A stretch of DNA of 64,000 nt from Bilabrum cf. latius (taxonomy: Eukaryota). The DNA lies in NCBI GenBank assembly GCA_965178125.1, contig OZ237776.1, positions 1 to 64,000 of the forward strand, written 5' to 3'. Shown here piece by piece: positions 9,390 through 49,900 of the stretch. A program made the translations under genes and the position numbers. Under the pieces are notes generated by a model. That model was given only the letters and a program-made list of their open reading frames with translations. It did no database searches and was not told the origin of the DNA. Position 1 is the stretch's first letter, and each line of letters opens with the position of its first letter.

Positions 9390-12300
9390 ATGGAGAGCGA
9401 TTCAGCTGCAAATAGAATACATACATTGTAGGCCGCGTCTGGAACAGAAGATTTGCGCGATGAATCCGGCTCATAGCCGGCAAAGCGTTCAACGGAAATG
9501 CTATCCGGAGATGCCTAGAGTAGCGCTGCAGTTGCAAAGATTAATGTGTCCGGCAAACTCGGTAACCAGAATAAGATAGATAGCTCAAATGGCTCAGCTG
9601 AATCAAAGTCTCCGGAACGGTCTGGTGAAACGACGAAAGGAATTCGATTTGCTGGAAGCTCGCGAACATCTCAATAGCTCAAAGAAGAGAAGGAGCCGGC
9701 AAACACCACGGACAAGAAACGGAAACATATCCGATTTGCTCGTGCAGAGCCAGAACCGGCCCAGCATGGGGCCAGCCCTCGTCCAGCCCACGGGTAGAAT
9801 TCGGGAGCGTTGCGGCCTCCTGCTTCGAGGCAAGTTCAGGTTCGTGGCCCTGAGCCGCCCAGCCTCCGAATGCGGCTGGCAGCCCATCGATAGGCCTGGG
9901 ATCTGCTTCCCCTGCCGCGTGCCATCTCTGCAGCTAGTGCCAGAGGACCCGCCCGATCACCTGCCCGACAAGGAGCTGGGGGCAACGCGCCTGCCGCTGA
10001 GGATGCGGGGACGAGCGGCCTGTCGCTGCGCCTTTGGAACGACGTCCTTCGATCCACATCGCGGTGGGCACAGGGTGCAATGCACTGCGGCGCGCCGCTC
10101 CCCGTGGCTGTCGGCCGATCCTGCCGGTCGCTTCACAGCGAGCACCGGCGGGGTGCATCGAACGATAGCGCGCCCGGTCCCAGCGACCGCTGGCACGTCA
10201 AATGGTAGCACCAGCCCCGGGCCTCCAGGGGTGCATTGCACGGTAGCGCCCGGGGCTCCTCCAACGACAGCGGTGGGGCGGGCTCGAGCCGCAGCGCGCT
10301 GGACACAACACGATCGGTGGATTCGGGTATGACGAGTGCGGGCGCGGAACAACCGAGCGGCGCCGCGCACGCGATCATCCAGGCAGGCTCGGTGTCCTCC
10401 CCTGTCCTTGTGTGGCTCAGCCGACGACAGGGGCCGTCTGGACCCGCGGCACGGTGGGGCGCCGCTGCGGCTGTGCCTCCGCTGAGCGTGGGGGAGCGGG
10501 CCGGCGTGCATGCATTGCACGGTGGTGCAGGCCCGCGGTCCGCGTCCCCGCCCACCGGCGCCGCGTGGCGCGTGCCCCCAAGCGGCCCCTCGGCCGAGAC
10601 CCGCCCCCGCACTGGGTCCAAGGAGGCCATCACGGAATCCACCGGTGGATTGGACCCGGCCGTGCTGAGTCCAAAGCCGGGAGGGGTGTTCACAGGGGAG
10701 ATACCTCATGCGCATAACCGGAACTAGGGGCAGCAGCACGCCGGGGACGCTGCTGATTCAGCTGCTGCAGCTGGCGGCGTGGTGCGGGTGCAGCTGACCG
10801 TGGCAGAGGCCGGGCCCGGTCCGGCGGGGGGAGCTGGAGTGGGGTCCGGAGGGATGGTGACGAGTGCTTTGTCGAGCTCGGAGGAGATGCCACCTCTTCT
10901 GCTGCGCGGGCGCTCCACGGAGAGTGTAGGTCATGGCCATCACTCCTCCGAGTCATCCGGCACCGAGGTGTGGGGCTGTGTGACGAGCGAGATTCTAAAG
11001 GTGCACGGCACTGCGGTGCAGTAGCAGGCCAAGGACTGGGCCTCGCACGGTTGGGTGGCGGTGGCTGCTGTGTCTGCGCACTCGTCACACATTGTAGCAT
11101 CCAGCTTGCTGCCGCTGGCGCATTCCGATGGTGTGACGGGTGCCCAGCGCCGCCCGTGGGCCCCTCCAACCGACCTGACCGAGGGGGGGCTCGGGGCAGG
11201 AGTGGGAGCGGGCCAATCTCCGCTGCTGCTGGCGGGGGGCGTGCCATCACCGACCACTGCGGGAGTGGGAGTGGGAGGGGGAGGGGGGCGTCCCAGGGGG
11301 GGCGTGGGCGGCATGGGCGGGATGCGCGCGTTCGACTGGAGCGAGGATCTGGGGGGCGGATCTTCTGTGGATGACGAGTGGGACAGGGTACACCGCAATG
11401 CAGTGCATGCGTGCTGTCGGCTCAAGCCCTCACCTGCCAGTGCCAAATTTAGTGCACATGCAGGAAAAGACGAGGCTGGCATCAGCTGGTCTCGGTCGAT
11501 GCAGTCCATCGGTGGACTACCAGATCGGACGCCCTCTCCCGTGCTCGTCACACCTGCTGCTGGAGTGGTTGCGACCGGTGCGGGCAGCTCCGGGCATTCT
11601 AGCCCGGGCCGCGCTGGAGTGATGGTGGTGCTGAGCGCCTCACCGGGAAGATCGGATCAACTGGGATCGGATCAACTGGCGGGGATGGGCCAGACCGGCG
11701 TGCAGATGGAGGTGGTGGGTGCAGCTGGCGGCGGCTCCCAGCGGCGTGCCACGACCAGCCTGTCATCGTCTTCCTCCAGCAGCAGGAACCGGCTGAGGGG
11801 GCACAGGACGGGCACTTCTGGGGAACACAGCAGCATCAGGGGACAGGGGAGCGTCGCATCTGGCCCTAGGCAGAGCAAGCTGCGAGCTGGTGCTGGTGCT
11901 GGTGCTGGTGCCGGGGCTGGGGCCGGTGCCGGTGATGGTGCTGGAGTAAGGCCCTTGCATGCAGCCCAAGGCGATGGTGAGGCCCAGGACCAGGGCCGTG
12001 TGCTGGCGGTGTCGATGAGTGCGAGCAGCAGAGGGCATGAAGGGGGGCAGCAGGGAAGTGCCCGGGGAGTGGCAGTGGGCAGGGGCAGGCTCTATGCACC
12101 TGCTGCAATGAATGGCGTGACCGGAGCTGGAGTTGGAGCTGGAGCTGCTGCTGGAGCTGGAGCTGCTGCTGGAGCTGGTACCGGGGAGGATGAAGATGAA
12201 GATAAAGATGATATCGAAGAGGCGGTAAGCTCGGGATGCATGGGCTGCTTCGGGCTTTTTTCATGGGGAAGCAACACAAGCAACCCGGCGAATCCCAGGG

Positions 12301-15300
12301 CTGTGGGGCAGGCGATGCACTCGTCACACCGAACGGACGCCAGCGAGGCAAGCGGAGGCAACGTGCCGATCCTGCACCACGGGCTGGCCCAGAGAGGGGG
12401 TGACCCCACAGCGGGGGCGGGGTCCATGGGGAGGGCGAGTGGGCTGACAGCGGTGTCTGGGACTGGCGTGGGCATGGGCAGGAGCCATTCAGAGCTGGCG
12501 GCAGCTGCTGGCAGTGCAAGTGCCAATGCCACGGCCCAGCGGATGGAGACTGACGTGGAGGTGTCGCATACCACCCAGGGGAACGCGGGGGACGTGGACA
12601 GCACCCCCAGGGGCGTGGTCCCCAGGGTGGGGGCGCTCCGACTCCCCCTAGTGACGTCCAATTCCCAGGGAACAATGGCCAGCCTGGGGCTCGTGCATGC
12701 TGAGGGGGGAGACTCCACGGCCCGGAGCAGGCTGGTAAGCAAGGACAGCAGCGGAAACAGCGGTGAGAGAGGGGCGGGGGCAAGGGCAAGGGCAAGGGCA
12801 CGGCATGGGGTCGTTGTAGGTGGAGGTGCAGCGATTGCGGGCCACTCGAGGGGTCTGTCCTCGCCCTCCTAGCAGCCCCCCGTACAGCAGGCCCAGATCC
12901 TGCTAGGTGCATCGCACTGCCAGGAGGACCTCCCGAAGGATGCATCGCACGATGGTGCGGCCATCCGTGCCCTGATCCTGTGCGCCGCCCTCTCCGGTCG
13001 AGCCATGGGGCTGGGCGCTGGTATTCCGGTTATCCCTGGGAGATCCGTCCAGCTCGCGTAGGGAAGGAGCGACCACTCGTCCTCCTCGTCCTCGTCGCGG
13101 ACCGAAGGGATGGGGCTGGGCCCGGCTGGCGCGCCGGGGGCGGGGACGCTGGCTATCGAGCGAACTTCCAGGGAACGTTCCTCCGAAGAACCTCAGCCGG
13201 AGGCGGGGCCGATGCTGCACGCGGCCTTGGCGGACTGCGGCGCGCCCCTGCCCCTGCCCCTGCTTCTGACAGGCGATGGTGTTCCGGGCGGCAGCAGCAA
13301 AGTCACCGGAGCCAAGGCGGGTCAAGTTGGTGGCAGTGTGACCCGGGGTGTCGGCGATGGGTTGCCTGCGTGGGTCAATCAGCTGGTGCGACCGCTCGCC
13401 CGGAGGAACTCAACGGACACATCCAGGAGCCTGCAGGCGCTGGCCGTGGCGTGTCGCATCGACGAGGTGGGGCAGGTGCAAGTGCATGGCACTGCAGCAC
13501 CCAGTGACCCAAGCAACGATGCAGGTGCAGGTGCAGGTGCAGGTGCAGGACCTGGAGCGCTCTCTCACCGGCAGCTGTCCCCCGCCGCCAGGGAGCTGCT
13601 GCTGGACGTGCTGGTGGGGCCCGTGAGGCGGGGGGAGCACCTGGGGAGGGCCGTGTGCAGGCTGTGTCTCGTGCTGGCTGGGGGGTGTGCCGCAGATGCG
13701 CTGCAGTGCGATGCATCCAGCGGTGGGCTGCTACCGCCGCGCGTGCGGAACCAGCTGGTGTCCGATGCCGTGGACTTGGCCAAGAAGATGCCCCCCGGCA
13801 GGCTGACGGCTGCACAGGCCTAGTCTCTGGGGGCACTGCTGGCGGCTTGTTCCCTGGCCACTAGCACTTTCCGCTGGGAGGTGGTGAGTGAGGCGGCGCT
13901 GGAGACTGCCATGGTGTTCGGTGTGTCCGTGCCCCCTCTGTTCCCCGCTTGCAGGTGGGTCGATCTCGAGGCGGCAAGGAGCAGGAGGAGGAGAGAAGTG
14001 GAGGGCGGGCTTGGAGGCGGTGATGGTGAAGGGAGTGCCGGCAGCAGCAGACAGGAGCAGCAGCGCAATGCAATGCATGCAGCTGTGCTTCGTGCCGCCT
14101 CCACGCCCCTGTGGTCGATTGCTGCTGCACCGGTGCACCCAGGCAGCGAGGGCGCGACGCATGCCGATGGGATGCTCCATGCTGCACCCTCGGACTGTAC
14201 TGGTGGACAGCCATCGGCAATATCCAGGGAACAGGCAATAGCCCACAGGAAGCGTATGAGGGGGGTCACCTCGTAGTTCGCGAGACTGGCGGCAGGGGCA
14301 GTGGGCTGGCACCTGCCGCTGGCTGCACCTGAGGGGGGGTCCTGGCAGGAGGAGCACGAGCTCGCAGGGGCAGGGGCAGGGGCCATCAGTGGCCCGGGTG
14401 GAGAGGCAGATCACACCGACGGGTAGTATGAAGATGAAGATGGGATCCAAGCTGGCCTAGTGGCGGGTGGGTCCCAGACACGTGACCTGACTACCAGCAG
14501 CGATGGTGCCGGCGAGCCGGGGCTAGAGCCGGGGCCGGGGCGACTATCTGGCACAGGGGCTGGGGCAGATGCTGACGAGGACGCCGTGGAAGTAGGCAGT
14601 CTCTTGGAGTCAGGTGCAGCGCACGACAGTGGCCCAAGTAGCAGCAGCAGCAGCAGCAGCGGGGGTGGGAGCCCCAGCCATCGAGACGGCCTCCCCAGGG
14701 AACACGAGCCGGAGGACAGGGCCGAGGCACAGCAGCGGGCGAGGGAGGAGAAGTGGATGGTGCGCGTGGGTGCAGCGCATGGTCGCGCGGCCGGGAGGAT
14801 GCTCGCAGATTCGGCTCGCAAGGCTCTGGTGGCGATCCAGGCAGTGACCCAATCCACCGGTGGATCCACCACATCATCCGTCGCGATCGAACTGCTCACA
14901 GACCTGCAGGCGCATTGCACTGCAGCGGCGGGCTTGCTGCGAAGGTGTAACGAGGCCTGGATGGACAACGGCGCGGCGAGATCCACCCGTGGATTCGGCA
15001 TACGGTCCGACGCGGCCTGCACCGCGCTGGCTCTCTCCCTGTGCTCGCGGTCCTTCCCCATCGTGGGGCGGGCCCTGGTGCAGGGCACTGCGGTGCATGC
15101 GGGCTAGCAGTGGAGCGGCACCAGCAGCCCAAGCGCAGGGAACAAACTGCTGCGGGATGCAGCGCACTCGTCACACGTTCAGCCCGTGTTCCGCCCCAGC
15201 GCCGGCCTCGCTGCCCTGGCCTGCGAGCTGAGCCGGCCCCTGTACCGGAGCCACGGGATGTGGCCCGTCCTGCTGCACGAGGCGCACTCGTCACACCGAA

Positions 15301-18300
15301 GGGACGGCCCGCCGCTGCTCCGGCACGGGAAGCGGGAAGTGCTGCGGCGAGCGGCGGGGCTGGCTTGGGTTCCGCTGGCGGAGGGCGCCGCGCAGCTGGC
15401 GGCGCTTGCGTGCCTGGCTCAGCCGACCGTGTCTCTTGCCGACGGTGCACTGCACGACAGTGTTTCCGATGGGGACCGCGATGGTGTGACGAGTGCTGTG
15501 GACCGGGTGCTTGCCGCCGGGGCGCCCCTTCTGGCCCTGGGTCGGTGCATGCCCTACACAGGAGCCGGGGCCACGTTCCTGTGTGGCGAGTGGGGCGCGG
15601 ACCCCTGGTCCTTGTCCGACGACTCGAGCATGCGCGCGCTGGCCCGGGATCGAGTGCACGTGGCTCTGCTGCTTCGGCGCGGGTTCTCTGACGCTGAGGG
15701 GATGCCCGGGTCCTTCTCCTCCTCCCAGTCCTCGTCTTCATCGACTTCATCTTCATCGAGGTCCTCGATGCGGGGCAAAGGGTCGAAGGCGAGAGGGACC
15801 GAGGGAACAAGCAGAGGTGCGAGTAGCGGCACTAGCAGCAGCAGCAGCAGACGAGTGCTATTTGCCTCCTCCTCCTCCTCTTCCTCCTCTAGGCCGCTCC
15901 CCTCCCCCCGTGTGCCCCGGGGCCCCCTGCAAGACGCCCTGCAGGAAGTGCAAGCCGTGGCATACGGGGCAAGCGGGGCACTGGCGGGGTCAGGGGCATG
16001 CCTCTCCTTCGCGTTCGGCAGGGGACTCTCATGGTGGATGGGGGACGGGCTGGGGGGCGCCGCGAGGGAACAAGGGCTCACGGTGCTGCGGAACCTGGGC
16101 CAGTCGCGCTATCAGGTCGGGGCACAGCAGGCACAGCCGCAGCCGACGTCCCAGAGCGCACGAACTGACACCTCATCCAAGGGAGCTGCTGCCCTTGGAA
16201 CTGACCCCACGCTCCCCGCAGCTCTCTCGTCACACCTATCAGCGGCCATGCAGACCGACGGCGCTTCCCTCCTGCAGCGAGTGCGATGCAGCGCCTCCCC
16301 TCGGCTCCTGTCCGTGCCAGCCGCGCACGAGGCTGCTCTCCACGGCCTGGCGCTCGATGCCCGGGGAACAAGGGATGGTGCGCTGCCCAGCGGGCTGGCG
16401 GCGGCGGCGGCATTCCTGAGGAACACGCTGAGGCGATTGTAGCGTGCGGTTAGGCGCCCCCTGTCGGTGATGGCGGCGCGGCGTGCACGAAGCGCGCGGC
16501 AGCTGCTGCCCCCGCCGTCCAGCGGTGAGGCCGGGAAAGAGAAGGAGGACAAAGAGGGGGAGGAGCAAGTGGAGGCCCCAGGAACGGCCCGCCCCCCGAA
16601 GACGGCCCGACCCCCAGGCACTGCCCGGCCCAGAAGTGGAAGCACGAGCAACAGCAGCAGAGATGGAGAGGAGGAGGAGAAGGAGGGGGCAGGTTCACCG
16701 GGGCCTCTGGAGGGTGTTGCCGGGCAAGGTCAGGGGCAGGGGCACGGTGAAGTGCCAGTCGGGGTGCTGCAGGAGGCCGGGGCCTCCATGGGCCGAGGTG
16801 GTGGCAGCAGCGGGGAAGGAGGGGGCAAGCAGGGCGTACACAAGGAGGAGGAGGAGCTGCCTCCCTCGCTGAGCCGCACCGTGACCATGGAGGCCCTGCA
16901 GGCAGAGATGGCCAGGGAGGCGGCTAGGCCAGGGAACAAGAGGAATGGGGGTGGAGGTGGGAGCGGGGGAGGGAAGGGGAGGGGGGCGGCTGCATCTGGG
17001 AAGGTGTTCCCTGGAGGACACTCGTCATCCAGTAGCGGCAGCGGGAATGGAAGCGGATCCAGCCACGGGTCCGGCGCGGGCAATGGTGCTGGTACCGGCC
17101 AGCGGGGCAGGAACCGCAGCAGCGATTCCAACCCGAGTTCTGACTCCAAGTCGGTCGCATCCAGCGGTCGCAACAGCGCCGGTGTCGCATCCCCTGCGAC
17201 CAGAAACCGCCGCAAGCCCGCCGCGCTCTCAAAGGGCAAGGCGGGGTCCCACTCTACACTCGTCACACGGGGTGCGGACGGTGCAGGGGCTCCAAGCCCC
17301 GGGTACATATCCGCTACGAGCCAGGGAACCGCGCGGCCGCCCGTGCCCCGACTGGGGGGTGCCTCGGGCCAGGGGCTGCCCGAGGGGGCCTCGAGAGGGG
17401 AGATTCCCGACGAGGTCGGCTCCGGGTCCATCGATCACTCGTCACACGGTGGTTTCTCGTCCGCCTCCGGCAGTCGTTCCCTCGGTGGCAGCGGTTCCCT
17501 GGCCTCCAGCGGGGTCATGTCCAAGGGCAGTCTGGCTGGGAGCAGGGGGTCCCTGGGCAGCAGGAGGGGCACTGGCAGCCCACCCCAGGACAGGGACATG
17601 AATAGGGACAGGGACATGAATAGGGACAGGGACAGGGACAGGGACAGGGAACATGAATAGGATCACGGCATGGAGGGGAAGGAGCACGACACCGGGGAAT
17701 AGGTAGGCAACACCCATCGTCATCATTCTCCTCATCAGCAGGGGCAGGGGCAGGAGCAGGAGGGGCCATCCAAGTCCGTGCCCGCCTCACCCACAGGCAG
17801 CCGAGCCTCGTCCTCCTCCGCTGCCTCCTCCCAGGAGCACAGGAGACCATCGGGCAGAGGCAAGGCCAGGCCCAGGTCAGGCATCCCGAGAGGATTGAAT
17901 CTATCTCTCAACCTTCCAGGGAACAGCGGGTCTAGCGAAGTCGGGCAAGGGCAAGGGCAAGGGCAAGGGCAAGGGGCCCAGGGTGGCGTGAAGCTGGGGC
18001 TGGGCCCGGGGCAATCGGGCACCACGGGGAGCAGCAGCAGTGGGCTGCACCCAGGGTCATCGCCCTCCCTCGCCGGCTCGCTGATGTCCTCATCCGTCTC
18101 GGGGGGGCTCGGCGGGCTGGGGGGCAGCCGTGTGACGAGTGAGGCCCGGGCCAAGCCGGGCATGAGCCGCAGCAGCAGCAGCGGGGGTGCAACGGCCGTG
18201 TCTGCCAGCAGCGAGGGGGAGGCGGGGCGGCCCTCCAGGCGAGGGAACAACGGTGCACAATCCACCGGTGGGCCAGGGAACACCGGTGGGGGTCGGGACC

Positions 18301-21300
18301 TGCCTCCTGCAGGCACGGGCGCACCTCCGGGCGATGCAAGCAGCGGGCCTGATGGCAGCAACGGCGGTGGTGGGGCTGGTGCTGGCAAGGCACCATCTGC
18401 TGAGGGCAGCAGCAGCGAGCTCGGCAGCAGCGACGGCAGCTGGGACTTTTCCATCGGTCCGGGTGCCATCGCGGAGGGTGACGACTACGATCCGGAGCCG
18501 GAAATCAACCCTGGGCCCGCCTCGCCCAAGGCCGGTCAGCCCGGTGAGGCCAAAGTGCCGGTGGCCCTGGACTTGGGCAAAGGCGGGGCCAACAAGGTGG
18601 CCAAAGATGGTGGAATGGGTCCTAGTGGAATGGGTAGTAGCAGCGGAACGGGCACTCGGCTGGGTACATCGCAGGGTGGTGCGTCGAGCCACAGCGGGTA
18701 CGGCTCGATGGACTCGGGCAGTCGAAGCGCGGGCCAGGCGCCCCCCACTGGCCCAGGGGCACACTCGTCATCCGGATCCCACGGTGGGGTGCACTCCGAG
18801 TCGGGCACGCACACGGGGACAGGGACCGGCACAGGCACAAGCCACTCTGGGTCTGGATCGCAGACGAGCAGCCAGAAGCGCATGCAGCAGCAAGCCGGGG
18901 GCAGTGGGGGGCAGGGGAGCAGCAGCGGGGACCAGCCGGGCGCAGGCACCGGGTCTGGCAGCAGCGGCGCGCTGGGCGCCTCTGCCGGCCTCAGGAGTCA
19001 GGCGAGCCAGCGGGGGGTGGAGAGCTCGGGGCAGGTGGGCAGGGAACAAGGGGACCCGGGTAGCGGAACCAAGGAGGCGCCGCGCACTCCGGGCTCCGAC
19101 CAGCGCACTCGTCACACTGGAGGTCCCCAGAACCGCCGCGCCACCGGCACCCCCGCCATCATGCAGGGGATCCAGGGGATGGGCATGGGCGGGGGCAGGC
19201 TCGTGGACGGGGGCATGATAGCCAAAGCTGCGAGGTCGGCGAGACCTCCCCTCCGGCTGCGGCTGTCCATGCCGGAGCCGGGGCAGATCCAGCAGGCTGT
19301 GGCTGCTTCAAGGGCGCTGGCGAGTCCCCCGAGTGGGGGCGGGGTCAGCCCGGGGAAGGCCGGGGGTCTCGCTGCCCCCCTGGGCCTGGCGATCCCATCG
19401 CTCGGCCGGAAGCTGCCTCCCCGCAGGGCGTCCTACCAGGGAACAGAGTACCAGGGAACAGAGGGGCAGGGAACAGATTTGGACGGTGCCAATTCCCAGG
19501 CCAGCGGCACTGCCTCCGCCTCCCCGTCCCCGCAGAGCAGAGACAGGGCCATGTCGTGGGGGAGGTCCACGGCCGAGATGGGGAGGCCCAGGCGAGGGGG
19601 GCGTCAGGGCCATGGATCGGATCAGGGATCGGATCAGGTGGAGAGAAAGTCGGGCGACGAGAGCGGCGGGGAGGACAGAGAGCATGGGATGGTGATGGGG
19701 ACGGGAGGGGAGGGGGCTCCTGAAGTGAGTGCAGGTGCGGGGTCATCATCAGGGGGCGGGATCGCCATGGGCTCAGCCGGGCTCGGCAGCCCGGGGGCAC
19801 CCCCGACGAGCCACCCATCCGCCTCGCCAGGGTTCCGGTTTGGCCCCGGGACGCTTTCGGTGCCTCGAGGTACCCCTGCCTCTGCGGCGAACACGCCCCC
19901 CATGCCCAGGGCCAGGTGGGCCGGTGAGGCCGGGCTGCATCTGAGGCTGGACGGTGGCTCGGGGTCGGGCGGGAAGGGGGCCAGGGAGGGCAAGGGGGAG
20001 GCGGGCAGGTTCAGCAGGGTGCTCGCGCAGAATAACGGCTCCGAGGCGCTGTCCTGGGCGGACTCCCCCTCCGGGACCATCCACGCCGGGCTGGATTCCA
20101 CGCACCTGTCCTCCTCGGCCCACGACCATGGGGAACAGGGGGGTCCCGGGGGCGGGGCCAGCAGGCTGCTGGATTCGGTAGATGTGGGTGACGATCTCGG
20201 CACCGATGACGTGGGGGAGGGAGGGCTGCTTGACGCGCTCGTCGAGACTCACTCGTCACACTCGCGATCCCACTCGGATTCGGAGCGGCAATCCCCCTCC
20301 CAGCAGTCCCTCTTGCTGTAGGCCCACTCCCCCGCGACCGCGATGCGGCAGGGGAGGGGAGGTTTCGGCGTAGGCCGCGGGCAGCAGCACCACCATGCAA
20401 TGCAACCCGATGAACCTTCGCTGCAGCGAAGCCCCTCCCTGGGCCCGTCCCATGGAGCCCCCGGGTCAGCTCACCCGGGGTACCAGTCAGCGGACGGGCC
20501 CCTGAGGAGGGTCGCATCCGAGTCCTCGTCGGTGAGGGGGAACCCACACTGGGCGGCGGTGGCGCGCAGCTCTGGAGATGCATCGCACGGTAACGCGGGG
20601 ATGCATCCCCTTGCGGTGCGGGCTGCCGCGGGGGGCACTCCGGGGCGCGGGAGTGGGCAGGGAATGGCTCTGGTGCCTGCCGCAAGGCGCACCCAGAGTA
20701 TGGGAGTGATGGTCGCTGACTCCACCAGTGGAGTGATGGTCGCTGACTCCACCGGTGGATCGGCCTCGCACCACTTGGCCGGCCACTCTGCCCACCCTCT
20801 CTCTCACCACCGCGTGCACGACCGCACGGAGGTGGGCAATGACACCTACAGGAGCGTGCTCGCCTCCCCCTCTGCAGTGTCCTGGGAGGCGGACAGGCCC
20901 CGGCGCCGCGCTGGGGGCATCCTCGGTGGTGCCTCCTTTGGCTCCAGCAGGGGAGCCAGGAGGCCGTTCCAGGGAAGCCTGTCTCACTCGTCACACGGAG
21001 CCGGAAACGCGGTCTCCGGAGCATCGGCGGCGCACGCGGCCGCACGCGCCGCCACCGAAGAGGACCTCCCACCCGTATTGGGCGTGGCCGCCTGCGTGGC
21101 TCTGGCGGTGCTGGCCAGCATGCGGCCGGATGGGATGGGGCTGCGCCAGGCGGTGGCGCGGCGGTCGGGGCGTCCCGGTGTGGAGGCTTCGCAGGGAACA
21201 GCCGGCGCGGAGGAGGACGACGATGGGGAGGTGGGGTGGGGGGTGGCCAAAGCAGCGGGCAGGGAACAGAGGACGGTGGTCAGAGCCATGCTGGCGGCCG

Positions 21301-36400: not shown

Positions 36401-39400
36401 GTGGCCCAGCAGACGAGTCCCCGCAACCGGTTCTTCACCGCGCTGGGGCGGCCCGCAGTGACGTCAGTGGCTCCGAGTGGGGCCACGGCGGGGGAGCGCC
36501 TGGTGATTGCGGGCAGCAGCTTGGGCAGGAAGGACGATGACGTGGCTCGGGTGCTGCTGGGGCCGTACGATTGCCTGAACGTGGCGGTGCTGGGCGAGAC
36601 CTCGATCGAGTGCACGGTGCCTGACCTGCAGCAGGACCAGATCGACGGGCTGCAGGTGGTGGTGCAGCAGAGAGGGGGCCTCAGCAGCGACCCGGAGTCT
36701 GCCCCTGTGTTCACGTACGGCGTGATCGGGGATCCATGGCCTGACGTGGCCAGCTCAATCCAGGGGTGGAGGGTGCGGAACGACCGCTTCGAGGTGCGGT
36801 GGGCCTTCCGCGACCCGGGTAGGGTGTCGATCGTGGAGGAGGGGCTGGCGGGTCTGAATGGATTCGAGATACAGTCCAGGCTGCTGGATGCGAGCGGGGC
36901 CAATGTGACGAGTGCGATCCCTGCTGCATCCGCTGGGCAGGACAGCGCCGTGTCGGGGCAAGACGAGGACGAGGCTGCGGCGTTCCGGATCGACCTGGCC
37001 GACATCAGCGTGAGGCCCAGCTCCACCGGTGGATTGACCGCCATGCGCGCGTCCTTCACGGCCATTGATCCCCGCCCCATGGCCCTCCGGATCCGGTCCA
37101 TCAGCGAGGCGGGCCCGGGCCCATTCTCACCCTGGACCCCCGGCGTGCCGTCCACGTGCGCCGCCGGCGAGTTCCTCACCACGCACCTTCCTCCCCACGA
37201 GTGGACCTGCAGGCCATGCCACCAGAAGGGCACTTTGTGCAAGGGCGGGTCTGCCTTCACCCTGGCTGCAGCTTCGGGGTACCAGCGGGTGCCCTGGGCG
37301 CGAGGCAGGACGGCCTTCATTGAGTGCCCCCGGCCGGAATCGTGCCTGTCGCTGGCGGATGAACGCGCATTGGCGGCTGAGACAGCCAGTGCGAGCCCGG
37401 CTCGGAGGCTGGATGGTGTGACGAGTGCACCGATGCAGCAGGGTCGGGTCCTCCAAGAGGAGTCCCAGTGGCCCAGCCTTTCCTCGCTGTACGTGCAGGA
37501 GCCCGCCGTGGAGTCTGCCTCGCTGGTGCGGGCGCGACACGTGCTGCAGTCGATGGCGAACGTGACTCTAGTGCATGGCACTGCAGACGTGCCCTCGCTG
37601 GTGGACGCCGGCGCCCCCGTGTGGGTGGGTGAGACGTGTGCGGACGGGTACGGTGGGCTGCTGTGCGCGAGGTGCCAGCCAGGGTACACGTCGTGGGGTC
37701 CATCGGAGTGCCGCAAGTGTCAGGGCGGGTTTGTGGTTGTGCTGGTGGCAATCCTGGTGTCGATGGCGGTGTTGTTGCTGGCTATCGGACTGGTGCTGAA
37801 TGCCCTGCGGAAGGGGGCACTGGCTGCGATGCGGGTGGATCGAGAGGGGCGAGATGTCCTCGGTGGGGGCCAGCTGGCGGCTGGCATGGACGGGTCAATC
37901 GCTCTGGCAGCGATGCCGGGTCCAGCTGGCGCGGGCTTGAACATGCCCAAGCCCGGTCCAGCACCGTCCGGCAAGCCAGCGGTCAATCCCAAGGGAGTGG
38001 CGGGGCCGCGCGGGCATACCAATCCTCTGGCACTGGTGCTGCACGGCAATCCATCGGCCGCCACTCTGGCGGCCAGACAGCCCGTGCAGTCGGAGCAGCA
38101 GCGGCTGATGGATCTGCTGGGTGACGACAGCTCATCGGACGAGAATGAAGCGGGGCACCAACTCGCCCGTCCGTCTGCCAGCACACGCACTGGAATCGCA
38201 TCCAAAGGCAAGCCAGATGCAGGCGATGCAGAACAGGGCAAGTCCACCAGGCAGCGAGGACACGGGCAGCGGGCCGTGGACCAGAATGTGGGTATGGCCA
38301 CCATCAAGATCCTGTTCTCGCACGTGCAGGTGGTGGCTATCGCTGCGTCCTTCAAGCTCGCATGGCCCGATGAGGTCATTGCCCTGTTCAACACCATGGG
38401 CTCCATGTCCTCGGTCAGCTCAGAGGTGCTGAGCCTGGACTGCATGCTGCAGCAGAGCGCTGGGGAGCTGCCTGAGGCTGGGGCGGTGGACGGACAAGCA
38501 GCCGCGTTGGAGGCATGGACAGCCATCCTGCAGCAGCAGCAGCAGCAGCACGCCATGAGCAGTGGATTGAGCGGTGCAAATGCCACAATAGTAGAAGCGC
38601 ACGACGCATGGCCGGGCACGCAGCTGCAGGACGAGAGGCTGCTGGCACAGGCGCTGGCCATGCACGAAGAGAACGTGCTGGGGGTGGACCTGCAGCGGCA
38701 GCAGAGCGGCCTTGCCGCCAGCATGCCGCACGGGTCTGCGTACTTTTTGCGGACCATCGTGGTGCTGCTGAGTCCGCTGCTGCTTGCGCTTGGCCTGGCC
38801 CTGTTCTGGGTGATCGTGGATGCCATCGACGGGTGCCTGCACGAGCCAGACGGGATCGTCATTGAGGAGCCAGGGGAGGAAGGGGGCCCGGAGGAAGCGG
38901 GCCCGGCGCCGTTTGCAGGTGGCATCTAGAGCGCGAGGCCGGCTGGGGGCAGAGAGGGGAAGCCTGCCCCCGGGCGGATGGCCAAGCAGAGGATGGCATT
39001 CAACCCGCTCGCGAGAGTCAGGCGGGCGGGCGAATCGGTGCTCGCGGAGCCCAGCGTGTCCGGTTCCAAGGGAGTGGTCCGGGGATCGAGCCCGAGTAGG
39101 AGCGCATCCGCCCCCAGGCACTCGGCCGCTGTATCCACTACCAGCAGCAGAGGGATAGGAACAGAGTCTGGCACTGATCCCAGCAGTCCAGCAAATAGCA
39201 CCATGGGCAGGAGCAGGAGTAGGGGCGGTCGTGGCTCTGGTATCGTGCAAAAACGCACCAGCCGGTTCCGCAGCTTGTTGTCTGGATCCAGCGGGGCCTC
39301 AAGCCAAAGCACCGGGGGGGCGTCTGGCCCGCAAAGCACCGGTGCAGTGCCCGCGACCCACGGCGATTCCGTGACCATGGGCCCCTCCCCTGCCGCTGAG

Positions 39401-40594
39401 CTGCCGCCCGCGGCCGAGTACTTCTGGCTCGCGTCCAGCCAGCGCACGGGGACGGTGCTGGGCTGTGTGGGCGTGCCACTGGCCGCTGTGAAGCTCCCGC
39501 TGGGGATGCGGATCCTCTCGGGTCTGACTGTGATTGCCTTCCTGGTGCACCTGACCCTGACCGAGGCATCCTTCGGGCTGCTGTCATGCACCACCCTGGA
39601 GCCGGACGTTGACCTGGCCGAGGACGACGATGAGATGGGCTCGCTGGCAGTGAGTCCGGCGAGGCATGACGAGTGCCGCGAAAAAGAGAACAGGCGGCTG
39701 GTGCTGGACCTGGACGTGTGCTGCAACAATCCCAGCGCGCAGCAGATCATGTATGGCGTCGGCGCACCTGCCATCCTTGTGTTTGCCGTGGGCATCCCGC
39801 TGCTGGCTGGCCTGAGGCTGTGGTGGGTCAGCGACAGGCTGCATGCGCCCGACGTGATCGCCACGATGGGCTTCCTGACGGCGGGATTCAACGAGCACGC
39901 GTACTACTGGGAAGTGGTGATCATGCTGAGGAAGCTGGCCGTGGTGGCCATCACGGTGCTGGTGGAGCCCATGGGCGTGCGCGTGCAGACGTACTCCGCC
40001 ATCGCCGTGATTTTCGCCGCTGCTGTGCTGCACTCGCTGAACCAGCCGTACGAAGCCACGACGCTCAACACGCTGGAGCTGGTGGCGCTGGTGGGCGCTT
40101 TCCTGACGTTCGAGGCGGGTCTGTTCCTGCACGACGAGAAATCGAGCAAAGTGGTGAAGACAGCTGCCACGATGGTTGTGTTCCTTGCCAACCTGAGCGT
40201 GCTGCTGTGGTGCCTGTGGGTGCTCCGGTGGGAGATCCTGGGCAAGGCGCGGGAGGTGTGCTCGTTCGCTGGCTCGCTTGTGGTGGGGGGCGAGCCGGGT
40301 GGTGTAGAGGCTGGCACGGCGGGGGGCTCCAAGGGAATGGGTGCGGGCACGAAGGCTGCCGGGGGAGGGCTCGCTGGTGCAGGTGCAGGTGCAGGTGCAG
40401 GTGCAGGTGCAGGTGCAGGTGCAGGTGCAGGTGCAGGTGCAGGTGCAGGTGCAGGTGCAGGTGCAGGTGCAGGCACGGTGCAGGTGCTGTCCGACTGGGA
40501 GCAGAAGAAGAGCCTCAAGACGAGGTCCACTCGGGCTGGGAACGGAGCTGGCAGCAGTAGCACGAGTGGAGGGTACTAGGGGGAGGAGGCGTGA
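27489..40594 (+). CDS. Giant (~4,320 aa) cell-surface protein: signal peptide, FG-GAP beta-propeller repeats, IPT/TIG-like Ig folds, Cys-rich region, multi-pass TM C-terminus
   Basis: Exon 1 (27489-27562) encodes MPYRLLCLILIASVGLxQSVP, then a GT-AG intron at 27563-27708, then one frame to the TGA at 40592. About 12 repeats of FG-S-LGDLDGDG-D-AVGA-DDDG-RGAVWILFL. TIG-like units (VTSVAPS..G..L.I.G..LG...V.LG...C), CxxC-rich segment (CADGYGGLLCARCQPGY) and TM helices with YYWEVVIMLRK. 13 in-frame TAGs. Confidence 0.85.
27780..29030 (+). repeat. First FG-GAP coding tandem array (~6 units of ~205-216 bp)
   Basis: Recurrent HQKISD.EG.F.G.LD..D.FG and GDLDGDG.D.AVGA units. Confidence 0.85.
29915..31185 (+). 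repeat. Second FG-GAP coding tandem array (~6 units, 216-bp period in its first part)
   Basis: Equivalent TAG codons at 30050, 30266, 30482 and 30698 are exactly 216 bp apart, and adjacent units share long identical DNA stretches. Confidence 0.9.
40376..40471 (+). repeat. (GGTGCA)16 coding microsatellite encoding a Gly-Ala run
   Basis: Perfect hexamer tandem in the C-terminal tail of the FG-GAP gene. Confidence 0.95.
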
Positions 40595-45095: not shown

Positions 45096-45175
45096 CTTGT
45101 TTCGACTGGGTGATTAAGAGCTGATATAATTGGTGTGCAATCCGAACTCCGGCCATGGTGCCTGCCACTGGTCGA

Positions 45176-46758: not shown

Positions 46759-46920
46759 CCGTTGGAGCGGATCCAGCAGATCCTGGACTTAACCTTAACG
46801 TACTCCAATATTCGGATTGGATTCGAAGGACGCAATCCTATCCTTGGATCTACACTGGCGGACATTCGATACGCAGCTGGCAGTACACTATGCAGATCAG
46901 ATCAGACGAGAAGCCTCACC

Positions 46921-49900
46921 TCACAACCAACCGTCCCCCCCATCGTCCTCCTCCTCCTCCAGCTCCTCCTGCCTCTGGGCCCTGGCCCTCGCCCGCGCCG
47001 CCTCGGCTGCTTCCGCCTCCGCGGCTGCCTCTGCCTCCGCATTCGACCCTCCCCCGTTCATGGCCCCTGCACCTCCATCGCCGGGGACATCCCCACCAGC
47101 CGGCCCCGCACCCGACTTGAGCGAGCCCTACTGCTCCTGCTGCTGGGCGCGCGCCGCAGCCGCCGCCGCCTGCTGCTCCTCCTGCTGCCTCCTGGCCGCC
47201 TGCTGCGCTGCCTCCCGCCCCTCGTGCGCCTCCAAGGCAGCATCCCAGTGGCCCGTAGCAACCCCGCCCGCACCAGACGGTGCGTCGATCCCCCCCGAGG
47301 AGGAGGAGGAGGCCCCCGTGCCGCCACCGCCGCCGCCCCCCAATAGGTCGGCACCGGCACCCGCGTCATCCTCTGCCTGCAAGTGTGACGAGTGCATGGA
47401 CTCGGCCTCCCGCAGCAGCCCCTCGTAGGAGGCGCCTCCTGCACCCCCCCCGCCGCCCTCCTCCCTCCTCTTCTTGCTGGGGGGAGGCTGGGAACCACCG
47501 CTGCCGCCGCCCAGGTGCGCCTGCTGCTGCTACTCGGCGGCGTGCGCCCTGGGGTCCCACTCGTCATCATCCTCCTCCCCCGCCCCGTCCGCGTCCTCCC
47601 CCTCCTCCGTCCAGCGGCGCCGCTTCTGCCCCCTGCCCGCCCTCGCGCCCACACCCGTCGCTGCGGGAGAGGAGGCAGCCCCTGCGGTGACACCGCCAGC
47701 TGCAGAGGAGGACAGGCCCGCCCTCCCGGCATCTGCCTGCTGCTGGGGCCCGTAGTAGGACCCGAGGCACTCGGCCACATACGCCTACAGCTGCCTCAGC
47801 GTGTGCGAGTCCAGCGCGTTCACGTCGAGCTCCACCTCCTCCTCCCCCTTGCCCGCCCCCACGGGCACGAATTCCTGGATGATCGCAAGCACCCGCGAGA
47901 GCTGCTCCGGTTGCAACCGGTGCACCCCGTCGGCGAGGCGCCGCTTCTCCTCCATGGTAAGCGGAACCGAACCACTGGCGTCTGTCGCGGCGCCGGCGCC
48001 AGGAGACGCGGGCACGAGGCTGTGTGACGAGTAGTCTTCCGTGCCGGCAGCCGCGTACGAGTGCAGCCTGCTTCCCCTCGAGGACCCCCCGCCCCCTCGA
48101 CCCCTGCCCCTGCCCCTGCCGCGCCCCCGCCGCCGCCCGCCCCCCCTCTTGGGGGCAGGTGCAGGGGCAGGTGCCTCCTGTTGGATGAACCCCCCCCCGC
48201 CCTTCATGCTTGCGATCTGGTGCTTCAGTTCCCTCAGTTCCTCCATGAGCGCCATCTGGGTGCGCAGGCTCTCGTGGTGCAGCATGAGCGCCTGCTGGGC
48301 GGCGGCGGAGCTGCCCATCCCGCCCATCTGCATCGCGTTGTCCAGGGTCAGCTCTGCCTGGGCCATGGCCTGCTGGGCCTTGGCACCCATCGCTCGGCCC
48401 CTGCCCCTGCCCCCGCCCGATCGCCCCCCCGCGCCCCCGCCCGAGGACTATCTCCTGGGCGCCCTGGGCTCGCTCCCCATGGCCGCTCTCCTCCTCGCCC
48501 GCCTCTCGATCTCCGCTGCTGCAGCCCTGGCCGCCACCTCCTCCTCCTCGGCAATCCCCGCAAAGTCGGCCCGGGCTCTATCCCAGGCCCGCTCGAACTT
48601 CTGGAGGGTCTGTCCCGCGAGCTTGTAGACCCAGTGCACCCTCCCGTTGTACCGCATGGCGTTGGCGAGCACCAGCCGCACGTCGTGCGCGAAGGCGCCG
48701 GGCCCCCAAAGCAGGTGCACCCGCGGCACGGCTGCTCCGCCCGACGATCCACGGGTGGAGTGCTTGCCCCCCTCCTCCTCACCGGAGGCCGATGCACCGG
48801 CCGCCCCCGAGCCCTCGCCCGCCCCCGGCAGTGGGTCGGGGATGGGAGTGACGGTCGTGGCAGCCGATCGGTCAGGCGCGGGGAGGGGGTAGGCCGGTTT
48901 GGGCGCTGCAGCGGGGGCAGGGGCAGGGGCAGGGGCAGGGGCGGACGACCCATCTGCAGGTGCCTGGGCCGGGGTCGCTGCGGGTGCGGCGCCCGCGGGC
49001 GGCGTGACGAGCGGTGGCGCGGGAGGCATGGGCGGCGTGGCGGCCCCTTGTTTTCTCATGCTCCTCGGCTCCCAGGGGCAGCGCCCGGGCAACGGCTGCC
49101 CGTCCGGTCCCTTGGGGATGGCCTCTGGTGCCTCGGGGGGCAGCTGGCTGGAGAGGACCTTGGGCACGCCCCCACCGGGCCTGGCCTCCCACGCGTGCTC
49201 GCACTCGGGGGCTTGTTCCCCGGCGGGGGCTCCTGCTTTCTTGAGCTGTGCCCTCGCCGCCGCTCTGTCTTGTTCCCTGAGGTGTCCCAGCGGACGGACG
49301 GAGGAGCCCCTGTGGCCCGGCTCGTGGAGCAGCTCACTCCGAGCCTGCGCCACATTGCCCACCCCCCGTGAGGAGCCCCCCCCGCCCCTCGACCAGGCGC
49401 GATGGGCAGCGGCCAGCGCATCGTCAGCCCGTCTCAGTGCATCCTCCTGGTCTGCCGAGATCCAGGCGGTGCCCGAGTCGCCCGCCGCCCCCGCCGATGA
49501 TGATGCTGCAGCTGCAGAGGACGAAGAAGAGGAGGAGGAGGAGGAGGCAGAGGATGTCTCGCCCGTGTCGTCCTCCCCGCCGCTGGCAGGGGGCCGCACC
49601 GCCGGCCCCGCCACCTCCCCCTGATCCGCCTCGATCGCATCTGCGTCCTCCCCCGTCCCCGTGACCTCCTCGGGCAGCCACCGCGAGTACACCCCCGACT
49701 GCAGACGGGCCGTGACCCGGGACAGGTCCAGGGGGTGCCTGACCACGTTCCAGTACTGGGGGCACTCGAACCTGGCCGGGTCCACGGCCTCTCCGAACGT
49801 CCCAGCCACGCCGTTCACCTGCCCCAGCTCGTGCAGCACCTGCAGGCACCTCCGCAGGCACCGTGCCTCTGTCCTGGCCCGGGCACCGACCCCCTTCTTC

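What the first reader, a model, noticed from the sequence alone, without database searches (positions are those of the whole stretch)
11079..47394. Hyper-abundant 12-mer CACTCGTCACAC / GTGTGACGAGTG embedded in coding DNA on both strands and in several frames
Seen: 23 exact copies by eye. CACTCGTCACAC at 11079, 12318, 15165, 15285, 17257, 17436, 19106, 20250, 20985, 22743, 22956, 23583, 32469 and 33876. The reverse complement at 15484, 18130, 21991, 22147, 22678, 25096, 35310, 37416 and 47383. Many 1-2 mismatch copies also occur (e.g. 10856, 23149, 25627, 29572, 36903, 48022). Uniform-base expectation for a given 12-mer on both strands of 64 kb is about 0.008. It is translated as HSSH, (T/A/S)LVT, RTRHT or GVTS with no synonymous variation, so the constraint is on DNA, not protein. 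Spacing is irregular, flanks are unrelated, and no exact copy was seen in RPL10, RPL15, PDI or intergenic DNA. Inference: a eukaryotic analogue of bacterial HIP1, Chi or uptake-sequence skews. It could be a binding site for a chromatin, recombination or replication factor, or a product of methylation or repair-driven motif creation, accumulating where low-complexity protein tolerates it. The TGACG core resembles a bZIP half-site.
Basis: partly seen in the sequence, partly recalled or inferred. Interest (0 to 1): 0.85.

Follow-up and report, generated by a model that had tools for sequence, protein, structure and literature searches.

The report
Hyper-abundant 12-base word in algal genes
One exact 12-base word is written about two thousand times more often than chance into the GC-rich protein-coding DNA of this eukaryote, on both strands and by base changes in place, which resembles bacterial uptake sequences and has no eukaryotic counterpart that I could find.

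Summary
All 23 exact copies of CACTCGTCACAC sit at the stated coordinates, against 0.01 expected. A shuffle that keeps the proteins and codon usage gives 0.13 copies. Contigs of four public runs from four studies match the laid stretch without a changed letter, so this is neither codon bias nor an assembly artefact.

New results:
- All 11 HSSH peptides use the same 12 bases.
- At 3 of 3 testable sites, orthologue fragments from relatives align without a 4-residue gap. The word is made by substitutions in place, not by a 12-bp insertion.
- All 33 copies with at most one mismatch lie in GC-rich coding DNA. None lies in 15.8 kb of non-coding or unassigned DNA.
- Density falls as protein conservation rises.

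My best reading is that something reads this word on double-stranded DNA and favours its fixation, either by selection or by a conversion drive. Protein tolerance then limits where copies persist. I could not resolve the mechanism, and the restriction to exons is unexplained. Only this one 64-kb window was available.

In passing: TAG appears to be a sense codon, probably Gln, while TAA and TGA remain stops.

The parts
9213..26927 (+). ORF1, the host gene. It is a 5904-codon frame open when TAG is read as sense, low-complexity, with no Pfam family and a kinase-like C-terminal part. It carries 18 exact, 7 one-mismatch and 6 two-mismatch copies, or 1.41 copies with <=1 mismatch per kb.
27419..40594 (+). 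ORF2, a host gene. It is a 4391-codon frame with FG-GAP repeats, TIG domains and a TRP-like membrane part. It carries 4 exact copies, all in the GC-rich part 31701-40594; the lower-GC FG-GAP part has none.
46921..51114 (-). BET-type bromodomain gene, a host gene. It carries 1 exact and 1 one-mismatch copy, both in sense orientation.
11079..11090 (+). exact copy, sense, phase 0, HSSH (ORF1)
12318..12329 (+). exact copy, sense, phase 0, HSSH (ORF1)
15165..15176 (+). exact copy, sense, phase 0, HSSH (ORF1)
15285..15296 (+). exact copy, sense, phase 0, HSSH (ORF1)
15484..15495 (-). exact copy, antisense to ORF1, read as GVTS
17257..17268 (+). exact copy, sense, phase 1, LVT (ORF1)
17436..17447 (+). 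exact copy, sense, phase 0, HSSH (ORF1)
18130..18141 (-). exact copy, antisense to ORF1, read as RVTS
19106..19117 (+). exact copy, sense, phase 2, TRHT (ORF1)
20250..20261 (+). exact copy, sense, phase 0, HSSH (ORF1)
20985..20996 (+). exact copy, sense, phase 0, HSSH (ORF1)
21991..22002 (-). exact copy, antisense to ORF1, GVTS
22147..22158 (-). exact copy, antisense to ORF1, GVTS
22678..22689 (-). exact copy, antisense to ORF1, GVTS; 53 bp from the inverted copy at 22743
22743..22754 (+). exact copy, sense, phase 0, HSSH (ORF1)
22956..22967 (+). exact copy, sense, phase 0, HSSH (ORF1)
23583..23594 (+). exact copy, sense, phase 0, HSSH (ORF1)
25096..25107 (-). exact copy, antisense to ORF1, GVTS
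32469..32480 (+). exact copy, sense, phase 1, ALVTL (ORF2). Orthologue fragments read ALATF, ALVST and SLTTT, with no gap.
33876..33887 (+). exact copy, sense, phase 1, SLVTP in a TIG-like domain (ORF2). Orthologue fragments read RLVTP, ALVTS and TIVTP, with no gap.
35310..35321 (-). exact copy, antisense to ORF2, DGVTSD. Orthologue fragments read DRVPSG and NVVAPS; there is no 4-residue gap.
37416..37427 (-). exact copy, antisense to ORF2, GVTS; no orthologue found to test it
47383..47394 (-). exact copy, sense in the minus-strand BET gene, HSSH
10327..10338 (-). 1-mismatch copy (position 10 C>T), antisense, MTS (ORF1)
10978..10989 (-). 1-mismatch copy (position 2), antisense, CVTS (ORF1)
11131..11142 (-). 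1-mismatch copy (position 4), antisense, GVTG (ORF1)
15581..15592 (-). 1-mismatch copy (position 7), antisense, phase 2 (ORF1)
16224..16235 (+). 1-mismatch copy (position 2), sense, LSSH (ORF1)
23149..23160 (-). 1-mismatch copy (position 12 C>T), antisense, DVTS (ORF1)
25627..25638 (-). 1-mismatch copy (position 12 C>T), antisense, DVTS (ORF1)
36903..36914 (-). 1-mismatch copy (position 12 C>T), antisense, NVTS (ORF2)
48022..48033 (-). 1-mismatch copy (position 1), sense, YSSH (BET gene)
55994..56005 (+). 1-mismatch copy (position 5), sense frame of the DHHC gene ORF, HWSH

Best explanation
CACTCGTCACAC is a word selected or driven at the level of double-stranded DNA.

Shown:
- Copies arise in place, by ordinary base substitutions at sites in GC-rich coding DNA. 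They are not insertions.
- They are kept letter-perfect regardless of strand, reading frame, amino acid or codon preference.
- Their density is highest where the protein is least conserved.

Inferred: some factor that reads these 12 base pairs on duplex DNA gives alleles carrying the word an advantage. That factor could be a sequence-specific protein, for example an array of four zinc fingers or a repeat protein, or less likely a guide nucleic acid. Mutations towards the word then get fixed and mutations away from it get removed, and purifying selection on the protein decides which sites can be used. This is the logic worked out for bacterial uptake sequences, with an unknown reader in place of the uptake machinery.

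Within this reading I split my odds about evenly:
(a) A selected function in gene bodies, such as a chromatin, transcription or 'own gene' mark. This fits the restriction to exons and the absence from the transposase gene.
(b) A transmission drive, meaning biased repair or gene conversion in favour of the word.

For: DNA level, not protein:
- 11 of 11 HSSH peptides use one spelling, 13 of 19 VTS use GTGACGAGT, and 4 of 7 LVT use CTCGTCACA.
- A shuffle that keeps the proteins gives 0.13 copies against 23.
- The word uses the two rarest Ser codons, TCA and AGT.
- Peptide HSSH is seen 11 times only because of the word.

Duplex DNA:
- 15 sense and 8 antisense copies occur within the same genes.
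- The one frame with a stop (TGA) is empty.

Made in place:
- At 32469, 33876 and 35310, orthologue fragments of 66%, 49% and 72% identity, plus further fragments, align colinearly with no 4-residue gap. They differ by single residues: ALATF, RLVTP, DRVPSG.

Mismatch halo and sharpness, observed against codon-shuffle expectation in the three ORFs:
- 0 mismatches: 23 against 0.00.
- 1 mismatch: 9 against 0.14.
- 2 mismatches: 11 against 2.4.
- 3 mismatches: 21 against 27.
- Window-wide, the one-mismatch forms (10 copies) are 8 transitions and 2 transversions, spread over 8 of the 12 positions.

Limited by protein tolerance, in copies with <=1 mismatch per kb:
- ORF1, which has no homologues: 1.41.
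- The GC-rich part of ORF2: 0.56.
- BET: 0.48.
- PDI, RPL10, RPL15, the CDPK exon and the FG-GAP array: 0.
- Frame use roughly follows codon compatibility, with the same two frames on top.

Real:
- Contigs from four runs in four studies are identical to the window.

Parallel: the abstracts of PMC2817400 and PMC1939737 describe the same set of properties for uptake sequences.
Against: - No reader is identified and nothing about binding, modification or recombination could be tested.
- A tolerance-limited process should be commonest in non-coding DNA. Yet 0 of 33 copies with <=1 mismatch lie in the 15.8 kb of unassigned or non-coding DNA, where about 8 would be expected if copies were spread evenly. 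Bacterial uptake sequences are not excluded from intergenic DNA.
- GC-rich coding DNA of the chromo-domain gene, the 5' ORF, PDI, RPL10 and RPL15 (7.1 kb) has no copy either.
- No significant depletion of 3- and 4-mismatch forms was seen after removing the copies: 18 against 21.9 +/- 4.3, and 149 against 167 +/- 12. A gradual pull from near-matches is therefore not demonstrated.
- Sense copies are more frequent than the crude codon model predicts: 15 of 23 against about 6. This leaves some room for an RNA-level effect.
- Everything rests on one 64-kb window of one strain. Genome-wide abundance is unknown.
- Only 3 of 23 sites could be compared with orthologues, and those comparisons were at protein level only.
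Confidence: 0.55

Rival explanations
1. The word comes from a mutational process without any reader. A short patch of about 12 bases is repeatedly copied from a common template, such as an abundant RNA or DNA or another copy, into near-matching sites. Copies would then be born exact and simply decay.
For: - Copies replace sequence without changing length.
- The counts of 23 exact, 9 one-mismatch and about 9 excess two-mismatch copies, with no excess at three mismatches, fit 'born exact, then decay'.
- Decay variants are mostly transitions.
- Restriction to exons could follow if the template acts through mRNA or cDNA. The host genes are long uninterrupted ORFs.
Against: - No template is known, and no tRNA or Rfam RNA lies in the window.
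- Twelve bases are too few for homology-guided copying as known from established repair pathways (my own knowledge).
- The flanks show no shared sequence that could guide pairing.
- At 33876 the peptide LVT is shared by three orthologue fragments, so that site needed only a few base changes.
Confidence: 0.12
2. The word is an RNA-level signal in mRNA, such as a binding site for an RNA-binding protein or small RNA, and the antisense copies are incidental.
For: - 15 of 23 copies are in sense orientation, more than the codon model predicts.
- All copies lie in exons.
Against: - Eight exact copies and most one-mismatch copies are antisense within the same genes and are just as exact.
- No run on record as RNA was available to test transcripts.
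Confidence: 0.05
3. The word is a footprint or micro-insertion. A 12-bp unit, which preserves the reading frame, would be inserted by or left behind by a mobile element or by excision of eliminated DNA.
For: - The length is a multiple of three.
- The borders are sharp.
- Both orientations occur, and the flanks are unrelated.
Against: - At 3 of 3 testable sites there is no 4-residue insertion relative to orthologue fragments.
- By eye, the bases flanking the copies are not duplicated, so there is no target-site duplication.
- Frame use is far from even: 11, 8, 3, 1, 0 over the five stop-free frames.
- There are no copies in non-coding DNA, where insertions cost least.
Confidence: 0.03
4. The word is an assembly, polishing, adapter or contamination artefact.
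For: All holders found carry an identical sequence, so independence of strain is not shown.
Against: - Short contigs of four runs from four studies, under four organism labels, carry the copies inside otherwise identical sequence with no changed letters.
- All copies keep long reading frames open.
- The stop-containing frame is avoided.
- The paper search for the word returned only listings with unrelated titles, which I did not open.
Confidence: 0.02
5. The word reflects a protein-level motif, with HSSH or GVTS peptides selected for function, or plain codon bias.
For: HSSH and VTS are far commoner than composition predicts.
Against: - There is one spelling for 11 of 11 HSSH peptides.
- The same bases are read as four different peptides on two strands.
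- Rare codons are used.
- The shuffle that keeps the proteins gives 0.13 copies.
Confidence: 0.01

Closest known systems
DNA uptake sequences of Neisseriaceae (DUS) and Pasteurellaceae (USS)
   Same: - A short exact non-palindromic word, hyper-abundant on both strands. That the extended DUS is also 12 bases is recalled, not checked.
- Embedded in coding DNA in several frames.
- It raises the frequency of the peptides it encodes.
- It shows frame bias and a preference for poorly conserved proteins and positions.
- It has a graded halo of mismatched forms.
- It is absent from recently arrived genes; here the transposase gene has none.
(Abstracts of PMC2817400 and PMC1939737; window data.)
   Different: - This is a eukaryotic nuclear genome, for which no sequence-specific DNA uptake is known (my own knowledge), so the drive would have to be something else.
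- There are no copies in non-coding DNA.
- Only one close inverted pair exists (22678/22743), so there is no terminator-like pairing.
Chi sites (crossover hotspot instigator) of bacteria
   Same: An over-represented oriented word in coding DNA, read on DNA by a repair machine and acting as a mark of own DNA (recalled).
   Different: - Chi is 8 bases, is read by RecBCD or AddAB, and is skewed with replication direction (recalled). Eukaryotic nuclei lack RecBCD.
- Here the strand split is 14 to 9.
- A clear halo of one-mismatch forms exists.
HIP1 (GCGATCGC) of cyanobacteria
   Same: A hyper-abundant word at about one per gene, of unresolved function, maintained by selection (search listing and abstracts of PMC5861425 and PMC4390886 as shown).
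   Different: HIP1 is a palindrome tied to cognate methyltransferases. This word is not palindromic, contains no methylase-type palindromic core, and is 12 bases long (sequence itself).
Chromosome-marking recruitment motifs, such as the 12-bp motif enriched on the C. elegans X for the dosage compensation complex (recalled from memory, not checked here)
   Same: A eukaryotic 12-bp DNA word whose abundance in a genomic compartment is maintained for recruitment of a chromatin complex.
   Different: - Those motifs are degenerate, lie mostly in non-coding DNA, and are enriched only a few-fold.
- Here the word is exact, lies only in exons, and is enriched about 2000-fold in this window.
- Chromosome specificity could not be tested without the genome.
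Repeat-laden coding DNA of Eimeria (CAG and telomere-like heptamer repeats in genes; recalled, not checked here)
   Same: A DNA-level repeat written through protein-coding regions of a eukaryote and tolerated as low-complexity peptide.
   Different: Those are tandem arrays. This word occurs as dispersed single copies with unrelated flanks.

Membership tests
Bacterial DNA uptake sequences (DUS/USS) | Short exact word, strongly over-represented on both strands, with a graded excess of mismatched forms | tested here: met
   23 exact copies against 0.01 expected. Observed against expected for 0, 1 and 2 mismatches: 23/0.00, 9/0.14, 11/2.4.
Bacterial DNA uptake sequences (DUS/USS) | Copies in coding DNA arise in place, are frame-biased, and sit in poorly conserved proteins or positions | tested here: met
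   Colinear with orthologues at 3 of 3 sites. Frame counts are 11/8/3/1/0/0. There is a density gradient with conservation.
Bacterial DNA uptake sequences (DUS/USS) | Word is preferentially taken up by a competence machinery that recognises it | not testable with these tools
   No genome is held, and the organism is a eukaryote. This is the feature that would make it a member, so I do not file it as one.
Bacterial DNA uptake sequences (DUS/USS) | Also frequent in intergenic DNA, often as inverted pairs (recalled) | tested here: not met
   0 copies with <=1 mismatch in 15.8 kb outside the ORFs. There is one close inverted pair only.
Chi-type repair signals | Strand orientation skewed with replication or transcription | tested here: inconclusive
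   14 + and 9 -; 15 sense and 8 antisense. One window cannot show replication direction.
HIP1-type iterated palindromes | Palindromic word matching a methyltransferase site | tested here: not met
   The reverse complement GTGTGACGAGTG differs from the word.
Transposon footprint or micro-insertion | Extra length relative to orthologous sequence | tested here: not met
   No 4-residue gap at 32469, 33876 or 35310. The other 20 sites are untested because no orthologues were found.
Transposon footprint or micro-insertion | Target-site duplication beside the unit | tested here: not met
   By eye, the bases flanking the 23 copies on the two sides do not repeat each other. Position counts show only weak preferences at -2 and -1.
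Tandem or low-complexity coding repeat | Head-to-tail arrays | tested here: not met
   All copies are single. The nearest neighbours are 65 bases apart start to start and inverted. The k-mer census excluded periodic words.
bZIP (TGACG) transcription factor site | Conservation confined to a 5-8 bp core, usually with an ACGT centre (recalled) | tested here: not met
   All 12 positions are conserved. Among 39 copies of the first 9 bases, positions 10-12 are C, A, C in 30, 27 and 30. Among 27 copies of the last 10 bases, positions 1-2 are C, A in 25 and 24. The word has ACGA, not ACGT.
bZIP (TGACG) transcription factor site | Bound by a bZIP protein | not testable with these tools
   No binding data.

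The most novel reading that the evidence does not exclude
A eukaryotic nucleus harbours a sequence-specific transmission drive. A factor that reads this 12-mer biases break formation or heteroduplex repair in favour of the chromosome that carries the word. The word then spreads by gene conversion through the genes of the species, at some cost to its proteins. This would be a nuclear counterpart of the uptake-sequence drive and the mirror image of hotspot-motif erosion. An equally new variant is that the word is an 'own gene' licence mark, read on DNA, that long GC-rich genes carry and incoming elements lack.
Probability: 0.25. Interest if true: 0.9.

Novelty: new variant of a known kind. Interest (0 to 1): 0.8.

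Why it matters
Hyper-abundant exact words kept at the DNA level are known from bacteria, where each one led to a piece of machinery: the uptake receptor, RecBCD, methylases.

I found no description of an exact, dispersed, coding-embedded word of this kind in a eukaryotic nucleus. The search for the word itself returned only listings with unrelated titles, which I did not open. Two topical searches listed only bacterial cases. These searches cover open-access papers only.

If the word is genome-wide, it points to an unknown factor with 12-bp specificity acting on gene bodies. It would also offer a clean system to measure how far a DNA-level force can override protein coding in a eukaryote. The word makes an easy handle for pull-downs, for modified-base calling and for population tests of biased transmission.

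Tried and rejected

Searches for orthologues or relatives that found nothing usable:
- Orthologues for the ORF1 stretch 20322-24749, which has 7 exact copies: no hit at near or shorter lengths. The candidate lists were probably swamped by low-complexity words.
- Orthologues for ORF2 36455-37954 (sites 36903 and 37416): none.
- DNA of relatives: the metagenome scan with PDI gave 80 loci of at most 49% identity, with 0 copies of the word in 176 kb.
- The 14-base form in viral contigs gave 120 stretches with one match each, as chance predicts.
- Protein scans of genome contigs and viral contigs found no relative.

Other checks without a useful result:
- No RNA holder listed, so nothing can be said on transcripts.
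- No tRNA and no Rfam family in the window.
- The Atlas search of the ORF1 C-terminal part gave only weak kinase-like leads.
- A test for depletion of 3- and 4-mismatch forms, which would show a pull towards the word, was not significant.
- I looked by eye for a target-site duplication in the flanks and saw none; position counts show only weak flank preferences.
- Peptide counts in 75 homologous proteins showed no general excess of HSSH, VTS or LVT: totals 0, 66 and 50 against 0.23, 62.6 and 41.8 expected. The exception is P0037, which at 28% identity is too distant to test for insertions.

Literature: the search on the word and its complement returned 91 papers, of which 20 were listed, all with unrelated titles and none opened. 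Searches for a description of the TAG-only code in an alga listed none (listings only). Supplementary files were not consulted.

Full report
**Observation**

Dinucleotide-preserving shuffles give 0.01. Allowing up to two mismatches gives 49 copies against 5.49 +/- 2.35 expected.

The word is the commonest 12-mer of the window. It is also the only dispersed frequent word that is not low-complexity. The other frequent words belong to the paralogous FG-GAP repeats of one gene.

The 40 bases on either side of the copies share nothing. Position counts show only weak preferences next to the word: C at -2 in 14 of 23 copies, and G or T at -1 in 18 of 23. The unit is therefore 12 bases with sharp borders.

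**Setting**

The window is eukaryotic. Pfam finds:
- a BET bromodomain gene (46921-51114, -);
- a DDE_1 transposase (41904-45113, -);
- a kinase plus EF-hand exon (7039-8148, -);
- a DHHC palmitoyltransferase and a chromo-domain gene;
- PDI ending in KDEL, ribosomal protein uL16/L10e and eL15;
- a giant FG-GAP/TIG/TRP-like protein.

eL15 scores marginally best against plant ribosome chains. One run with a small share of the words is labelled as an algal metagenome. I did not try to name the organism.

When TAG is read as sense, two frames of 5904 and 4391 codons open. They hold 22 of the 23 exact copies, and the BET gene holds the last.

**Is it more than codon bias or an artefact?**

I shuffled synonymous codons within the three host ORFs, which keeps every protein and the codon usage. 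This gives 0.13 copies on average, with a largest value of 2 in 500 shuffles. Shuffling whole codons gives 0.0. The observed number is 23.

All 11 HSSH peptides are spelled with the same 12 bases. Thirteen of 19 VTS are GTGACGAGT, and 4 of 7 LVT are CTCGTCACA. The word uses TCA and AGT, the two rarest serine codons in these ORFs.

The same bases are read as HSSH (11), LVT (3) and TRH (1) in sense orientation, and as (G/R)VTS (8) in antisense. The antisense frame that would give TGA is empty, and so is the Cys-Asp-Glu frame. A simple codon-frequency model ranks the same two frames on top, although it predicts more antisense than sense copies.

On independent data: eight listed runs from four studies hold half or more of the sampled words of the 19000-25500 stretch. 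I laid contigs of X1, X5, X6 and X8 on 10900-25900. They show no other letters, and the only length difference is a 5-letter deletion at 16921 in one X1 contig.

The listed pieces of X1 cover 18 of the 18 exact copies in that stretch. Pieces of X5, X6 or X8 cover 16 of the 18. X1 may be the sample the window came from. All holders carry the same sequence, so this shows the copies are real DNA, but it says nothing about variation between strains.

**Insertion or substitution?**

This was the most informative test. A full HMMER search with ORF2 residues encoded by 32369-35851 found fragmentary relatives. On BLASTP re-comparison the best are 49% (P0001), 72% (P0002) and 66% (P0003) identical. Pairwise and multiple alignments show the following at the three exact copies in this stretch:

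| Site | Window | Relatives |
|---|---|---|
| 32469 | GAALVTLVA | GTALATFAQ, GAALVSTSS, GTSLTTTAR |
| 33876 | RGTSLVTPDM | RGSRLVTPSG, RGTALVTSRM, KGDTIVTPGL |
| 35310 | QWDGVTSDG | QWDRVPSGG, QWNVVAPST |

At none of the three sites is there a four-residue gap, so the word occupies pre-existing codons. At 33876 the peptide LVT is shared by the relatives, so only a few base changes were needed there.

Nine of the 15 residues touched by the word are identical to the closest fragment. That is about the same as the flanking identity of 55-77%.

The remaining 20 sites could not be tested, because no orthologue was found. The comparison is at protein level only, because no DNA of relatives could be reached.

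**Where it is and is not**

Copies with at most one mismatch number 33. Their distribution is as follows:

| Region | Copies with <=1 mismatch | Per kb | GC |
|---|---|---|---|
| ORF1 | 25 | 1.41 | 0.69 |
| ORF2, GC-rich part | 5 | 0.56 | 0.67 |
| BET gene | 2 | 0.48 | 0.73 |
| DHHC gene | 1 | 0.59 | 0.66 |

None lies in PDI, RPL10, RPL15, the kinase exon, the chromo-domain gene, the lower-GC FG-GAP array (4.3 kb, GC 0.56) or the transposase gene (3.2 kb, GC 0.56).

None lies in the 15.8 kb outside these ORFs (GC 0.52). An even spread would put about 8 there, and the probability of none is about 1e-4 by my own arithmetic.

I cannot separate 'coding' from 'GC-rich', because all GC-rich DNA here is ORF.

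**Shape of the family**

In the three ORFs, observed against codon-shuffle expected counts are:
- 0 mismatches: 23 / 0.00
- 1 mismatch: 9 / 0.14
- 2 mismatches: 11 / 2.4
- 3 mismatches: 21 / 27
- 4 mismatches: 156 / 194

After the copies themselves are removed, the deficits at 3 and 4 mismatches are not significant against the synonymous null.

The one-mismatch forms are 8 transitions and 2 transversions, spread over positions 1, 2, 4, 5, 7, 10 and 12. Neither CpG transition product of the TCG in the word was seen. Two-mismatch forms differ mostly at positions 10-12.

**Interpretation**

Several readings are excluded or made unlikely:
- a protein motif and codon bias;
- an artefact;
- a 12-bp insertion or footprint;
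- a tandem repeat;
- a plain bZIP half-site, which does not explain 12 conserved positions.

What remains is a word that is favoured on duplex DNA, built by substitutions, and thinned out by selection on proteins. This is the combination described for uptake sequences in bacterial genes: peptides enriched, frame bias, a preference for poorly conserved genes and positions, absence from newly arrived genes, and a graded halo. I read only the abstracts of PMC2817400 and PMC1939737 for this.

I therefore commit to a reader-dependent advantage, with overall confidence of about one half. I split that about evenly between two versions:
- a selected gene-body function, which fits the exon restriction and the empty transposase gene;
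- a conversion or repair drive.

A reader-free templated patch process is the main rival. It would fit the 'born exact' shape but lacks any known template.

It is not a member of the uptake-sequence family, because the defining uptake step cannot apply as far as is known. The resemblance is in how it behaves in the genome.

**Limits**

- One window, one strain, and no genome.
- Three of 23 sites were compared with relatives.
- There are no data on RNA, binding, modification or recombination.
- One distant homologue from the protein library (P0037, 28% identical) carries GVTS, SVTS, TRHT, LVTS and AVTS. This is a lead that the word exists outside this window or in a relative. Without its DNA this is not evidence.

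**Side observation: TAG**

TAG behaves as a sense codon.
- The two giant frames contain 36 in-frame TAG and no internal TAA or TGA in about 10,300 codons. With CAG:CAA at 321:71, about 8 TAA would be expected if TAA were read the same way.
- PDI ends KDEL-TGA. eL15 ends at its usual C-terminus with TAA, although reading on would add only three residues before a TGA.
- In the FG-GAP repeats, TAG occupies a position where paralogous units have CAG (4) or GAG (3). It occupies another position where the others have CAG. Five units share a TAG at one position.
- The transposase frame of 1069 codons is broken only by 14 TAG.
- Fragments P0003 and P0002 of relatives end one residue before a CAG glutamine of the window protein, and P0008 starts just after the first of these. 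This is what a standard gene caller would do at a TAG.

Glutamine is the likeliest meaning. Searches of the open literature listed TAG-only reassignments in a rhizarian, a fornicate and ciliates, but none in an alga (listings only).

Noticed in passing
whole window, e.g. TAG at 28244-28246, 29981-29983, 32885-32887; ORFs 9213-26927 and 27419-40594: TAG appears to be a sense codon, probably Gln, while TAA and TGA stay stops. There are 36 in-frame TAG and no internal TAA or TGA in about 10,300 codons. TAG sits where paralogous FG-GAP repeats have CAG. PDI ends KDEL-TGA and eL15 ends with TAA. Fragments from relatives break where the window has CAG. No description of such a code in an alga turned up in the listings.
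   Followed up: partly
41904-45113 (-): A DDE_1 transposase frame of 1069 codons is interrupted only by 14 TAG, about four times the TAG density of the host genes. It has no copy of the 12-mer with <=1 mismatch. The element seems adapted to the TAG-sense code but lacks the host word.
   Followed up: partly
9213-26927 (+) and 27419-40594 (+): Two uninterrupted frames of 17.7 kb and 13.2 kb. The first is almost wholly low-complexity, has no Pfam family and found no homologue, apart from a kinase-like C-terminal part.
   Followed up: partly
whole window: Two-compartment composition with sharp borders. ORF DNA mostly has GC 0.64-0.73, while DNA between ORFs has 0.47-0.58. Inside ORF2, the FG-GAP array (0.56) differs from the rest (0.67).
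   Followed up: no
27419-31700 (+): An array of at least 11 FG-GAP units. Five share a TAG codon at the same position (DGDG[VI]-TAG-DMAVGA), so that TAG predates the duplications.
   Followed up: no
about 12000-12400 and 40400-40560, among others: Hexamer tandem repeats encoding (Ala-Gly)n and (Gly-Gln)n give the next most frequent 12-mers (CCTGCACCTGCA and CAGGGGCAGGGG types). Read depth summed over contigs is very high at 11902-12402 in all four runs, which suggests a repeat shared across the genome.
   Followed up: no
16921: One contig of run X1 lacks 5 letters here (depth 12.8 of 28.9). This would shift the ORF1 frame. It could be a variant, a second copy or an assembly error.
   Followed up: no
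protein P0037 (library protein, not in the window): A distant homologue of the middle of ORF2 carries GVTS, SVTS, TRHT, LVTS and AVTS. VTS occurs 4 times against 0.46 expected. This hints that the same DNA word occurs in another gene or in a relative.
   Followed up: partly
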